Positions 61,700 through 62,232 of a stretch of DNA of 64,000 nt are shown here, piece by piece. The translations under genes and the position numbers were made by a program. The first letter of the stretch is position 1. The number at the start of each line of letters is the position of its first letter. The stretch is from an uncultured Candidatus Saccharibacteria bacterium. Its GTDB lineage: Bacteria; Patescibacteriota; Saccharimonadia; CAILAD01; BJGX01. Where the stretch lies: the NCBI GenBank assembly GCA_964481235.1, contig CAYZYH010000003.1, positions 12,341 through 76,340 of the forward strand. The letters run 5' to 3'. The notes under the pieces were generated by a model. That model was not told the DNA's origin and did no database searches. It saw only the letters and a list, made by a program, of their open reading frames with translations.

Positions 61700-62160
61700 G
61701 ACAGCTACAGCTGTGATAAATTTATCTTGGCTGCAGCTGCCTTAAATGTACAGCTTCAACTATTCAAGAACTTCTGTCACTACCTAAAAAATCGTGTAGG
61801 GCGCACGTACATAGGTTGTGACAGAACAGTCCTGAAAGCGTTGCGTGGTTTTGTGACCGCTTACCACCAACGCTTTCAGGCAATATCTCATAAAAGACAA
61901 TCATCTTCGGTGCTGCCAACACCAGCCGGCGGGCGTACTAAACGTGTAGTTGATTGTTAAATGAGAAGCAGCGGACAGATAGCTCAAAGTATGAATAGAG
62001 CAGCCGTCTTAGACGGAAGGTCAAGAGGTCGAATCTCCTGTCTGCACGAACCTCTTCTAGTTCAAAACCCTACCCAGGGTGGAGAAGAAGAGGCTACCCG
62101 CTTCGGGTTGGTTAGTGAAGCCCACTGGTCTTTAGCTAACCAACCTGTTGCGGGACCAAG
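61700..62160 (+). ncRNA. unclassified GC-rich structured RNA region (5' part of the murA-tig noncoding island)
   Basis: GC clearly above the local background; perfect 13-bp hairpin cctgaaagcgttg/caacgctttcagg (61831..61880) enclosing a second stem gtggt/accac; 9-bp stem ttctgtcac/gtgacagaa; repeated CAGCT(R)CAGCTG palindromes; only Arg-rich ORFs with odd composition. Confidence 0.4.
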
Positions 62161-62232
62161 GTCCCGTAGCTCAGTTGTAAGAGTACTCGATTGAAAGTCG
62201 AGGGGTCGCTGGATCGATACCAGCCGGGACCA
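62160..62232 (+). tRNA. atypical tRNA-like cloverleaf, anticodon GAA (Phe)
   Basis: Perfect 7-bp acceptor GGTCCCG/CGGGACC, 5-bp anticodon stem CTCGA/TCGAG with loop TTGAAAG, 5-bp T-stem GCTGG/CCAGC. The T-loop is ATCGATA (A at position 54) and no CCA is encoded. A canonical tRNA-Phe already exists at 23677..23752. Confidence 0.5.

What the first reader, a model, noticed from the sequence alone, without database searches (positions are those of the whole stretch)
62160..62232. Second, atypical tRNA-Phe(GAA)-like gene with an A54 T-loop and an 8-nt flanking direct repeat
All four stems form a perfect cloverleaf with anticodon GAA. However, the T-loop is ATCGATA rather than TTCRANT, no CCA is encoded (unlike every other tRNA here), and a canonical tRNA-Phe(GAA) already exists at 23677..23752. 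The 8-mer CGGGACCA occurs both immediately upstream (62151..62158) and at the 3' end (62225..62232), reminiscent of an att-like duplication. This could be a phage- or mobile-element-derived tRNA, a tRNA-like regulatory element inside a larger RNA, or a pseudogene.
Basis: seen in the sequence. Interest (0 to 1): 0.5.

Follow-up and report, generated by a model that had tools for sequence, protein, structure and literature searches.

The report
tRNA-like module of large Saccharibacteria RNA
The supposed second phenylalanine tRNA gene is real as a cloverleaf, but it is one of several tRNA-shaped modules at the tail of a previously undescribed, roughly 840-base structured non-coding RNA conserved in a group of Saccharibacteria, not a stand-alone tRNA gene or a mobile-element relic.

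Summary
Window 62160-62232 is a high-scoring cloverleaf with a GAA anticodon, an A54 T-loop, no encoded CCA, and CGGGACCA on both sides. The context changes its meaning. It lies in a single promoter-to-terminator, ORF-free, G+C-rich unit (about 61663-62503) between murA and tig.

Twelve related genomes (MurA 64-84% identical; the nearest named one is a Candidatus Saccharibacteria MAG) keep this unit in synteny. Shared parts are a conserved promoter and leader, covarying helices, and a hairpin with a GCCAA loop. Next comes an invariant first tRNA-like module (A) that has no anticodon but G3.U70 in 12 of 12 genomes, then a long hairpin ending in ACCA, then 0-6 accessory tRNA-like modules.

The finding is an accessory class C module, present in 6 of the 12 genomes. 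Its stems covary, and G34-A35-A36-A37 is invariant. Other module classes have loops of 4-14 nt.

The upstream 8-mer is a conserved core element that is also present in genomes lacking the module, so it is not an att scar. There is no Rfam family, phage or plasmid relative, and tmRNA criteria fail.

Function is inferred only. The modules are probably handles for tRNA-processing enzymes, and they may also be aminoacyl-tRNA synthetase ligands. The RNA appears to be a new class, and the tRNA-Phe reading is largely superseded.

The parts
61627..61656 (+). Promoter of the RNA gene: TTGACA, 18-nt spacer, TAAACT, with TG upstream of the -10 box.
   Evidence: Promoter scan scored 10 of 12. The TTGACA and -10 hexamers align in all 8 syntenic relatives and in L016 and L128.
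61663..61970 (+). 5' core domain. It comprises the conserved leader (CTTTTGTACCT..GCTGT..GACAGCTACAGCTG..CTGCAGCTGCC, a two-tier hairpin), further helices, and a hairpin GGTG-CTGCCAA-CACC at 61909-61923 with the conserved GCCAA loop.
   Evidence: The leader motif matches every family locus and none of 79 unrelated murA loci. The consensus fold has 24 of 53 pairs with compensatory changes. G+C is 0.44-0.50 against about 0.35 in the flanks. There is no conserved ORF.
61971..62046 (+). Module A, a tRNA-shaped domain without an anticodon. The acceptor stem is GCGGACA/TGTCTGC with G3.U70 and A73. The anticodon arm is a closed hairpin with a 3-5 nt loop, and the T-loop is GTCGAAT.
   Evidence: The module covariance model gives 29 bits, E = 1e-7, with filters off. 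Rfam tRNA gives 17 bits. Module A is always the first module in all 12 genomes. G3.U70 is present in 12 of 12 while pairs 2, 4, 5, 6 and 7 vary.
62047..62159 (+). Post-A hairpin domain. CCCGC (62097-62101) pairs with GCGGG (62150-62154) to close a long hairpin, followed by an invariant single-stranded ACCA (62155-62158).
   Evidence: Consensus fold of window, L006, L016, L128 and L102: 7 of 18 pairs are compensatory, the closing pair flips G-C to C-G, and GGACCA is invariant. The other subgroup has an analogous long hairpin followed by G-ACCA-C.
62160..62232 (+). The finding itself: accessory tRNA-like module of class C. It is a Phe-like cloverleaf with loop UUGAAAG, A73, A54, U19 and no encoded CCA.
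   Evidence: (79.1 bits).
62233..62263 (+). Inter-module spacer (CAAAGAGTCTTGGGCTATTACCTAAACTCAT), of the same type as the 28-29-nt spacers between modules in relatives.
   Evidence: Alignment and module coordinates. Module-plus-spacer units repeat in register in L014.
62264..62457 (+). Giant tRNA-like module, a four-way junction. It has acceptor-like stem GGGGAUG (62264-62270) / CAUCCUC (62450-62456), a canonical T-arm (62433-62449), and two greatly expanded arms in place of the D and anticodon arms.
   Evidence: MFE fold -82.4 kcal/mol, z = -3.2, 0 of 200 shuffles as good. The covariance model hits the T-arm at 62429-62449 with 19.6 bits. This module is seen in the window only, so there is no comparative support.
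62467..62503 (+). Intrinsic terminator of the RNA gene: a 14-bp stem followed by a T-run.
   Evidence: Terminator scan. A terminator occupies the same position in all relatives.

Best explanation
The element at 62160-62232 is an accessory tRNA-shaped module (class C) of a large non-coding RNA. The RNA is about 840 nt here and 0.6-1.2 kb in relatives. It is transcribed from its own strong promoter to its own terminator between murA/greA and tig, in a Saccharibacteria (Patescibacteria) lineage.

Shown:
- One ORF-free, G+C-rich, covarying transcription unit is conserved in synteny in 12 genomes.
- The universal core consists of the leader hairpins, a GCCAA-loop hairpin, module A (anticodon-less, with G3.U70), and a long hairpin followed by ACCA.
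- The 3' array of extra cloverleaf modules is variable (0-6 copies) and grows by tandem duplication of module-plus-spacer units of about 100 nt.
- Each module keeps the tRNA fold by compensatory change. Anticodon loops drift in length and sequence, except in class C, which keeps G34-A35-A36-A37 and A73.

Inferred mechanism:
- The precursor is recognised by the tRNA-maturation machinery. RNase P would cut at each module's 5' end. An RNase Z-type cut would follow the discriminator, because CCA is not encoded.
- This would dice the precursor into a stable 5' core RNA, the hairpin domain, and free tRNA-like RNAs.
- Module A carries the alanyl-tRNA synthetase identity pair, and class C carries the phenylalanyl-tRNA synthetase identity nucleotides. 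These two module types are therefore probably also ligands, and possibly substrates, of those synthetases.
- They would act outside ordinary decoding, as non-ribosomal aminoacyl carriers, sensors or sponges.
- The Phe-like module is dispensable: half of the genomes lack it, and the window has a normal tRNA-Phe.
For: Anatomy of the unit:
- Promoter and terminator.
- G+C profile.
- No long conserved ORF, and no conserved tag frame.

Conservation in synteny:
-.
- The leader motif is specific to the family.

Modules:
- Covariance-model map of modules in 11 loci, with L128 added.
- For classes B and C, 96.4% of cells are paired against 80.8 +/- 1.5% in shuffles (0 of 500 reach the observed value).
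- 10 of 21 pairs show double changes, and register slides give 34-47% pairing.
- Loop lengths are 4-14 nt, U33 is often lost, and CCA is absent in all but 2 of about 30 modules. All 8 genuine tRNAs have 7-nt loops, U33 and an encoded CCA.

Identity elements:
- Module A has G3.U70 in 12 of 12 genomes, with the neighbouring pairs varying.
- In class C the anticodon stem has 2 of 10 invariant columns, yet GAAA at positions 34-37 is invariant.

Other support:
- Core helices covary.
- The array consists of tandem units.
- That G3.U70 is the major AlaRS determinant, that G34/A35/A36/A73 are PheRS determinants, and that an encoded CCA is an anti-determinant for RNase Z are established knowledge. None of these was tested here.
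Against: - There is no expression, processing or aminoacylation data of any kind.
- The mechanism rests on resemblance to tRNA precursors.
- The comparative set is small (about 12 distinct genomes in three subgroups), so some conservation, such as GAA in class C, could partly reflect shared ancestry.
- Processing signals alone would not explain why G3.U70 or GAA is kept, or why up to seven modules are maintained.
- The conserved ACCA and GCCAA elements remain unexplained.
- No partner protein gene is linked to the locus.
- The discriminator of module A is U or C rather than A in 7 genomes.
Confidence: 0.6

Rival explanations
1. It is a genuine, translationally active second tRNA-Phe(GAA) gene. 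It merely shares an operon with a non-coding RNA and other tRNA-like genes. It would be matured by RNase Z and CCA addition, and it would read UUY codons.
For: - Full-length Rfam tRNA score of 61 bits.
- A regular 7-nt loop with U33, GAA and A37, plus A73.
- GAAA is invariant in six orthologous modules.
- Four of the five other class C copies (L012, L013, L015, L098) keep G18G19; L014 has A18.
Against: - The window copy has A54 and U19, which disrupts both elbow contacts.
- The orthologue in L098 has C33, and three orthologues have C54.
- The module is absent from 6 of 12 genomes.
- A canonical CCA-encoding tRNA-Phe exists in the window.
- Sibling modules in the same array cannot decode, having loops of 4-14 nt.
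- The window's canonical tRNA-Phe uses G37, whereas the module has A37.
Confidence: 0.15
2. The unit is an evolutionary fossil, the skeleton of a former rRNA or tRNA operon. The skeleton would comprise the leader, the processing-stem hairpins left after loss of the rRNA genes, a spacer tRNA-Ala and the distal tRNAs. Its pieces would be decaying, and the Phe-like element would be a tRNA pseudogene without function.
For: - The order leader, long hairpin, tRNA-Ala-like module, long hairpin, distal tRNA-like genes, terminator resembles a bacterial rrn operon with the rRNAs removed. This is an inference from general operon architecture.
- Anticodon loops have degenerated.
- Module number is unstable.
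Against: - Compensatory changes maintain helices in the modules and the core across genomes whose MurA proteins are only 64-84% identical.
- The promoter and terminator are retained everywhere.
- G3.U70 and GAA are specifically retained.
- No sub-threshold rRNA similarity was found in Rfam scans.
Confidence: 0.1
3. The RNA is an unusual tmRNA-like ribosome-rescue RNA. Module A would be its alanine-accepting tRNA-like domain, and the other modules would be appendages.
For: - Module A has G3.U70 and no anticodon.
- In L016, L102 and L128 its acceptor and T-arm read GGGGACG...GGUUCRACUCCAC.CGUCUCC-A, with an encoded CCA in L128.
- The Rfam tmRNA model matches L128 module A end to end at 29.5 bits.
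- The gene lies near tig and clpP.
Against: - The 29.5 bits are below the 47-bit threshold, and the tRNA model scores higher at 44.8 bits.
- The tRNA-like domain is contiguous, with D and anticodon stems. It is not formed from the RNA's two ends around an mRNA-like domain.
- No conserved tag reading frame exists.
- ARAGORN finds no tmRNA, even with relaxed thresholds.
- None of the three known tmRNA gene forms fits (PMC11915505).
Confidence: 0.04
4. It is a phage- or mobile-element-derived tRNA, inserted with an 8-bp target or att duplication.
For: - The 8-mer CGGGACCA flanks the element.
- The T-loop is atypical and CCA is absent.
Against: - The upstream 8-mer is conserved in relatives that lack the module, and it is base-paired within the core RNA.
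- Other modules in relatives have no flanking repeats.
- There is no integrase or mobile gene nearby.
- Synteny is stable.
- Only generic tRNA-level matches of 78-81% over about 75 nt were found in phages and plasmids.
Confidence: 0.02

Closest known systems
tmRNA (SsrA), tRNA-like domain
   Same: Module A is an alanine-identity (G3.U70), anticodon-less, tRNA-shaped domain embedded in a large, stable-looking structured RNA with its own promoter and terminator. In three genomes its acceptor and T-arm sequence is tmRNA-like.
   Different: - The tRNA-like domain is contiguous and has D and anticodon stems.
- There is no mRNA-like domain or tag frame.
- The match is below the Rfam threshold.
- The RNA carries further tRNA-like modules, including the Phe-like one. 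tmRNA has nothing comparable.
Polycistronic tRNA operons, and tRNA genes within rRNA operons (spacer tRNA-Ala, distal tRNAs)
   Same: - Tandem cloverleaf units are separated by short spacers.
- They are transcribed with a larger structured RNA from one promoter to one terminator.
- They are presumably matured by RNase P and 3' nucleases.
   Different: - Most modules cannot decode: they have 4-14-nt loops or no anticodon.
- They lack the CCA that all genuine tRNAs of this genome encode.
- The co-transcribed RNA is not rRNA.
MALAT1/NEAT1 mascRNA-type tRNA-like 3' processing elements (eukaryotic)
   Same: A tRNA-like cloverleaf inside a long non-coding RNA that could recruit RNase P and RNase Z, defining the ends of the long RNA and releasing a small tRNA-like RNA.
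   Different: - The domain of life is different and there is no sequence relationship. Rfam mascRNA reaches 24.7 bits against a 42.5-bit threshold, and only in L014.
- The element here is multi-copy.
- It retains synthetase identity elements.
- Processing was not tested here.
YrlA / bacterial Y RNAs
   Same: Bacterial non-coding RNAs that contain a tRNA-mimicking domain with an acceptor-like stem and D and T arms.
   Different: - Y RNAs are about 100-150 nt with a single module, and they lack an anticodon stem.
- They are encoded next to rsr (Ro), and no rsr gene lies in the neighbourhood.
- Rfam YrlA reaches only 18-20 bits against a 69-bit threshold.
GOLLD and ROOL large bacterial RNAs
   Same: Very large structured bacterial RNAs that are often adjacent to, or co-transcribed with, tRNAs (PMC5737381).
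   Different: - There is no similarity to either Rfam family.
- This RNA is chromosomal and syntenic, not prophage-associated.
- The tRNA-like modules are integral conserved parts, not neighbouring genuine tRNAs.
Non-proteinogenic tRNAs (for example Staphylococcus tRNA-Gly isoacceptors used for peptidoglycan bridges)
   Same: tRNA paralogues with altered D-loop and T-loop features that are kept out of translation but are still charged and used as aminoacyl donors. This is a possible analogy for modules A and C. It comes from general knowledge and is a lead only.
   Different: - Those tRNAs retain normal anticodons and are independent genes.
- No Fem/MurM-type transferase was found in the window.
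- Charging was not tested.

Membership tests
Canonical decoding tRNA-Phe | Cloverleaf with 7/4/5/5-bp stems, detected by tRNA models. | tested here: met
   ARAGORN. Rfam tRNA 61.1 bits against a 29-bit threshold. Stems are supported by covariation.
Canonical decoding tRNA-Phe | A 7-nt anticodon loop with U33, GAA and a purine at 37, conserved in orthologues. | tested here: inconclusive
   The window has UUGAAAG, and G34-A37 is invariant in 6 orthologues. However, L098 has C33, and positions 32 and 38 vary.
Canonical decoding tRNA-Phe | Conserved elbow nucleotides (G18-G19, T54-psi55-C56, A58). | tested here: not met
   The window module has U19 and A54. Three orthologues have C54.
Canonical decoding tRNA-Phe | 3' end organised like the genome's other tRNA genes, with an encoded CCA. 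| tested here: not met
   The trailer is A-CAAAG. All 8 genuine tRNAs are followed by CCA.
Canonical decoding tRNA-Phe | Retained as a decoder across close relatives. | tested here: not met
   It is absent from L006, L008, L011, L016, L102 and L128. The window has a separate canonical tRNA-Phe.
Canonical decoding tRNA-Phe | Maturation, aminoacylation with Phe, and use on the ribosome. | not testable with these tools
   This needs tRNA-seq, acid gels, or in vitro charging.
tmRNA | Alanine identity pair G3.U70 in the acceptor stem. | tested here: met
   Met for module A, in 12 of 12 genomes. Not met for the finding's own module, which has U3-A70.
tmRNA | tRNA-like domain formed by the 5' and 3' ends (or two pieces) enclosing an mRNA-like domain with pseudoknots. 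| tested here: not met
   Module A is a contiguous cloverleaf with a closed anticodon-arm hairpin.
tmRNA | A conserved tag reading frame with a resume codon and a stop codon. | tested here: not met
   A frame ending ...NLVIAA-stop occurs in only 2 of 11 RNAs. It reads through in the closely related L016 RNA (L016 sequence).
tmRNA | Score above the Rfam or ARAGORN tmRNA thresholds. | tested here: not met
   The best score is 29.5 bits against 47. ARAGORN finds none.
tRNA-gene-targeted integrative element (att duplication) | A direct repeat that bounds an inserted block carrying an integrase or mobile genes, with an empty site in relatives. | tested here: not met
   The repeat bounds only the 73-nt module. 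No integrase is present. The upstream copy is conserved in genomes without the module and is part of a covarying helix.
Y RNA / YrlA | Match to the family model and linkage to rsr (Ro). | tested here: not met
   17.9-20.3 bits against a 69-bit threshold. No TROVE/Ro gene is among the neighbours.
Any Rfam 15 family other than tRNA (RNase P, SRP, 6S, T-box, GOLLD, ROOL, OLE, raiA, HEARO and others) | A significant covariance-model match to the non-tRNA parts of the RNA. | tested here: not met
   Nothing was found at gathering thresholds. Nothing credible was found at E <= 1-10 for the window, L016, L128 or L014.
tRNA-like processing element (mascRNA-type mechanism) | RNase P and RNase Z cleavage at the module borders in vivo or in vitro. 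| not testable with these tools
   Only indirect evidence exists: an L-shape-compatible cloverleaf, and absence of an encoded CCA.

The most novel reading that the evidence does not exclude
This is a new class of large bacterial non-coding RNA, a 'poly-tRNA-like' RNA of Saccharibacteria.

Its universally conserved module A is an anticodon-less, alanine-identity tRNA mimic. Module A would actually be CCA-tailed and alanylated, and it would work outside normal decoding. Possible roles are as a dedicated aminoacyl donor (for example for cell-envelope or protein modification), as a rescue or quality-control factor, or as a charging sensor.

The expandable 3' array, including the Phe-identity module found here, would provide further synthetase-recognised tRNA mimics or decoys.
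Probability: 0.25. Interest if true: 0.85.

Novelty: categorically new. Interest (0 to 1): 0.62.

Why it matters
Large (around 1 kb), intricately folded bacterial RNAs are rare. The few known classes are rRNA, RNase P, tmRNA, group I and II introns, OLE, GOLLD, ROOL and raiA, and each has proved mechanistically important.

This RNA is conserved in an uncultured, host-dependent lineage with tiny genomes, where about 1 kb of non-coding DNA is costly. It combines an anticodon-less alanine-identity tRNA mimic with an evolving array of further tRNA mimics. One other alanine-accepting tRNA mimic is known in bacteria: tmRNA.

If the modules are charged or bind synthetases, this would be a new use of tRNA mimicry. 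If they are only processing handles, it would be a bacterial counterpart of the MALAT1-mascRNA arrangement.

There is also a practical consequence. tRNA finders will annotate these modules as tRNA-Phe, His, Gly, Thr, Glu, Sec or Pyl genes, or as 'undetermined', in Saccharibacteria MAGs. That inflates and distorts tRNA inventories and genetic-code inferences.

Tried and rejected
- **Relaxed ARAGORN tmRNA and tRNA scans of the region.** These gave only implausible permuted-tmRNA calls with non-tag peptides.
- **tmRNA hypothesis.** Rejected: no conserved tag frame, a contiguous tRNA-like domain, and a sub-threshold model score.
- **Rfam at permissive thresholds on four versions of the RNA.** No family was found other than tRNA-clan hits on the modules.
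- **Genome-contig scan with MurA.** It yielded the taxonomic anchor (L016, a Saccharibacteria MAG) but none of the close relatives.
- **Metagenome scan with the leader motif.** Of 31 loci, only 4 were true members (L098, L099, L102, L120). The rest were chance matches lacking the promoter and helices.
- **L127 and L129.** L127 has the same synteny but no room for the RNA. L129 belongs to an unrelated phylum.
- **Phage and plasmid searches.** Only generic tRNA similarity was found.
- **Pfam scan of 49 window ORFs.** I looked for Fem/MurM, MprF, L/F-transferase, CDPS, RNase P protein, RNase Z and CCA-adding enzyme. None was present.
- **Literature searches.** I searched for tRNA-like or large RNAs in Saccharibacteria, CPR and Patescibacteria, and read PMC11915505 and PMC5737381. 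Nothing corresponding was found.
- **Leader as a boxA-type antiterminator, and GCCAA or ACCA as pairing partners of D-loops or a UGGU motif.** Inspection was inconclusive, and both are left unexplained.
- **MAFFT alignment of module A.** It mis-registered the two copies with long D-loops, and I replaced it with covariance-model and manual registers. In one search the L008 row is off by one because I gave one base too many. The correct register (7743-7814; ARAGORN drawing) has G3.U70.
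Full report
**1. The observation**

- ARAGORN reports nine tRNAs in the window, including tRNA-Phe(GAA) at 62160-62233 and another tRNA-Phe(GAA) at 23677-23752.
- Rfam's tRNA model scores the element at 61.1 bits (E about 1e-11), within the 52-70 bit range of the eight genuine tRNAs.
- The sequence confirms the T-loop ATCGATA (A54) and the trailer A-CAAAG, so no CCA is encoded.
- CGGGACCA lies at 62151-62158 and 62225-62232. There are three copies in 64 kb against 0.49 expected.
- All eight genuine tRNAs are followed by CCA.

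The description is correct and is not a chance pattern.

**2. The surroundings change the picture**

- The element lies in a 955-nt gap without a credible ORF, between murA (60308-61612) and a 70-aa ORF followed by tig.
- From about 61800 to 62500 the G+C content is 0.48-0.54, against about 0.35 in the flanks.
- The gap begins with a near-consensus promoter (TTGACA, 18 nt, TAAACT, 61627-61656).
- It ends with a 14-bp intrinsic terminator (62467-62498).
- Two more tRNA-like pieces are visible: one at 61973-62044, and a T-arm at about 62433-62449.

**3. Relatives**

- The window's MurA is found unchanged in five assemblies. Its nearest homologues are 75-84% identical, after which identity drops to 66%.
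- Their contigs share the gene order purF-rsmD-tRNA-Leu-murA-(greA)-gap-tig-clpP-MFS-rpoB. Each has a gene-free gap of 0.77-1.3 kb.
- ARAGORN and Rfam find one to six tRNA-like elements in each gap.
- Many have 2- or 4-base 'anticodons', and nominal identities differ between genomes: Phe, His, Gly, Thr, Glu, Asp, Sec, Pyl.
- The best species-representative match to MurA is a Candidatus Saccharibacteria MAG (L016, 65%). So the window is most probably from a Saccharimonadia-like Patescibacteria lineage.
- L016 has the same unit with only one tRNA-like module, as does another MAG, L128 (MurA 64%).
- A leader-motif pattern matched all family loci and none of 79 unrelated murA loci.
- In the metagenome collection the pattern retrieved 31 loci, of which four are true members (L098, L099, L102, L120).
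- L127, a Saccharibacteria-like contig with the same synteny, has no room for the RNA. The family is therefore not universal.

**4. Architecture**

The alignment of the gaps and the consensus folds show one transcription unit with these parts:

- (a) Conserved -35 and -10 boxes.
- (b) A conserved 5' leader, CUUUUGUACCU.
- (c) A two-tier hairpin, UGCUGU..[CAGCUACAGUUG..CAACUGUAGCUG]..GCAGCA.
- (d) Further covarying helices. 24 of 53 predicted pairs show compensatory changes.
- (e) A hairpin whose stem covaries (GGUG/CACC, ACACG/CGUGU, GUAC/GUAC, GCUG/CGGC) while its loop, ..GCCAA, is conserved.
- (f) Module A.
- (g) A long covarying hairpin followed by an invariant ACCA.
- (h) Between 0 and 6 accessory tRNA-like modules, separated by spacers of about 29 nt.
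- (i) A terminator.

A covariance model built from 15 modules maps every module. In the window these are:

- Module A at 61971-62046.
- The finding (class C) at 62160-62232, scoring 79.1 bits.
- A lone T-arm at 62429-62449.

The segment 62264-62457 folds (z = -3.2) into a four-way junction. It has an acceptor-like stem, that T-arm, and two greatly expanded arms. This is a giant derived module, preceded by a standard spacer.

In L014, five units repeat in register at 86-104-nt spacing. A 57-nt block of T-arm, acceptor and spacer is 81% identical between two of the units. The array therefore grows by tandem duplication.

**5. What is and is not conserved in the modules**

- For classes B and C (12 sequences), 96.4% of cells are paired, against 80.8 +/- 1.5% in shuffles (0 of 500 reach the observed value).
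- 10 of 21 pairs carry double changes.
- Sliding the 3' partner by 1-3 columns drops pairing to 34-47%.
- Anticodon loops range from 4 to 14 nt, and U33 is often lost.
- Only two of about 30 modules encode CCA.

Two features stand out against this drift:

- **Module A.** It is always first, and its anticodon arm is a closed hairpin (UUCG-capped in L128). It has G1-C72 and G3.U70 in 12 of 12 genomes, while pairs 2, 4, 5, 6 and 7 change with compensation. The L008 row is off by one through my own coordinate error. One search shows the correct register.
- **Class C, the window's element.** It has only 2 of 10 invariant anticodon-stem columns and 4 of 10 in the T-stem. Yet G34-A35-A36-A37 and A73 are invariant in the six genomes that carry it.

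G3.U70 is the established major identity element for alanyl-tRNA synthetase. G34, A35, A36 and A73 are established identity elements for bacterial phenylalanyl-tRNA synthetase. Both statements are general knowledge and were not tested here.

**6. The 8-mer**

- In the window, L006, L016, L102 and L128, the sequence GCSGG-ACCA follows the long post-A hairpin.
- GCSGG pairs with an upstream CCSGC, and one of these pairs flips G-C to C-G. ACCA is invariant.
- Four of those five genomes lack a Phe-like module.
- The other subgroup has the analogous long hairpin followed by G-ACCA-C.
- The downstream copy is simply the 3' acceptor strand plus A73 of module C, and most B and C modules end in GGACC-A.

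The 'direct repeat' is therefore two instances of a recurring architectural motif. It is not an att duplication, and other modules in relatives are not flanked by repeats.

**7. Rivals tested**

- **tmRNA.**
  - No call from ARAGORN, even relaxed.
  - No conserved tag frame.
  - The best tmRNA model score is 29.5 bits against a 47-bit threshold, on L128 module A, where the tRNA model gives 44.8 bits.
  - The tRNA-like domain is contiguous. None of the three known gene forms fits (PMC11915505).
- **Mobile or phage origin.** Only matches of 78-81% over about 75 nt to ordinary tRNA genes were found. Nothing matched the other 770 nt or so.
- **Known RNA families.** None was found at permissive thresholds for four versions of the RNA.
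- **Linked enzymes.** A Pfam scan of 49 window ORFs found ordinary housekeeping genes. There was no aminoacyl-tRNA-dependent transferase or tRNA-processing enzyme.
- **Literature.** Full-text searches found no description of such an RNA.

**8. Interpretation**

*Shown.* The element is an accessory, dispensable, tRNA-shaped module under selection for its fold and for a Phe-type anticodon. It is embedded in a conserved, independently transcribed, large structured RNA.

*Inferred.* The precursor is handled by tRNA-maturation enzymes.
- RNase P would cut at the module 5' ends.
- An RNase Z-type cut would follow the discriminator, consistent with the systematic absence of encoded CCA in a genome whose real tRNAs all encode it.
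- This would release the 5' core RNA and tRNA-like small RNAs.
- Retention of synthetase identity elements in modules A and C suggests a further role as synthetase ligands or substrates outside ordinary decoding.

I put about 0.9 on the anatomical statement and about 0.3 on the specific mechanism.

Use of the window's module as a regular tRNA-Phe is unlikely, at about 0.15. The reasons are:
- It has A54 and U19.
- An orthologue has C33.
- Half of the relatives lack the module.
- A canonical tRNA-Phe is present in the window.

**9. Comparison with known systems, and novelty**

- The RNA works most like a tRNA/rRNA-type polycistronic precursor, or like the MALAT1-mascRNA arrangement.
- Module A resembles the tRNA-like domain of tmRNA in its identity elements.
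- It meets the membership criteria of none of these families.
- As an RNA class it appears undescribed. I found no match in Rfam 15 or in the searched literature.

The main limitations are:
- The comparative set is small, at about 12 genomes.
- There is no expression or biochemical evidence.
- The conserved ACCA and GCCAA elements are unexplained.
- The taxonomic assignment rests on one named MAG plus shared synteny.

Noticed in passing
window 23677-23752 (- strand): The canonical tRNA-Phe(GAA) has G37 (loop UUGAAGA) instead of the usual bacterial A37. It also has a U28.U42 mismatch in the anticodon stem. The Phe-like array modules carry A37.
   Followed up: partly
window 23399-23475 (- strand): The genuine tRNA-Gly(GCC) has D-loop AGTTGTTTA (no G19) and T-loop TTAGAGT (A56). 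This may be a U19-A56 replacement of the universal G19-C56 elbow pair.
   Followed up: no
L128 8959-9033: Module A of this Saccharibacteria MAG ends in an encoded ACCA, and its anticodon arm is capped by a UUCG tetraloop. It matches the Rfam tmRNA model end to end at 29.5 bits (below threshold) and the tRNA model at 44.8 bits.
   Followed up: yes
L014 7724-8488; L098 1451-2026 (- strand): The largest arrays have six or seven modules in L014. They include a long element resembling a class II tRNA with an extra arm (L098 1739-1826). tRNA finders label the modules Gly, Thr, Glu, Phe, Sec or undetermined, which is a likely source of spurious tRNA annotations in Saccharibacteria MAGs.
   Followed up: partly
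window 62155-62158 and 61913-61919; equivalents in all relatives: Two short invariant single-stranded motifs in the core RNA have no identified partner. One is ACCA directly after the long post-A hairpin. The other is GCCAA in the loop of a hairpin whose stem covaries.
   Followed up: partly
window 62568-62809: A 70-aa ORF with no Pfam match and its own terminator (62782-62809) lies between the RNA and tig. It is absent from L012-L015. L006 has an unrelated 144-aa ORF at this position, and L016 and L128 have three small ORFs.
   Followed up: partly
window 57374-58147 (+) and 58068-59519 (-): The purF-like gene and a conserved 257-260-aa gene of unknown function converge and overlap by about 80 nt at their 3' ends. 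The overlap is kept in the relatives that have both genes (L007-L010, L012-L014); L015 has lost the purF-like gene.
   Followed up: no
window 61613-62567 versus L001-L004: The entire 955-nt RNA region is 100% identical in assemblies from four other sequencing runs (907 nt compared in L004). The same strain therefore recurs in several samples.
   Followed up: yes
window 2409-4275: Transketolase is encoded as two adjacent ORFs, with the N-terminal and C-terminal halves overlapping by 14 nt.
   Followed up: no
window 15858-16217: A small protein of the Phage_holin_4_2 family (four transmembrane segments) lies among housekeeping genes next to uvrC.
   Followed up: no
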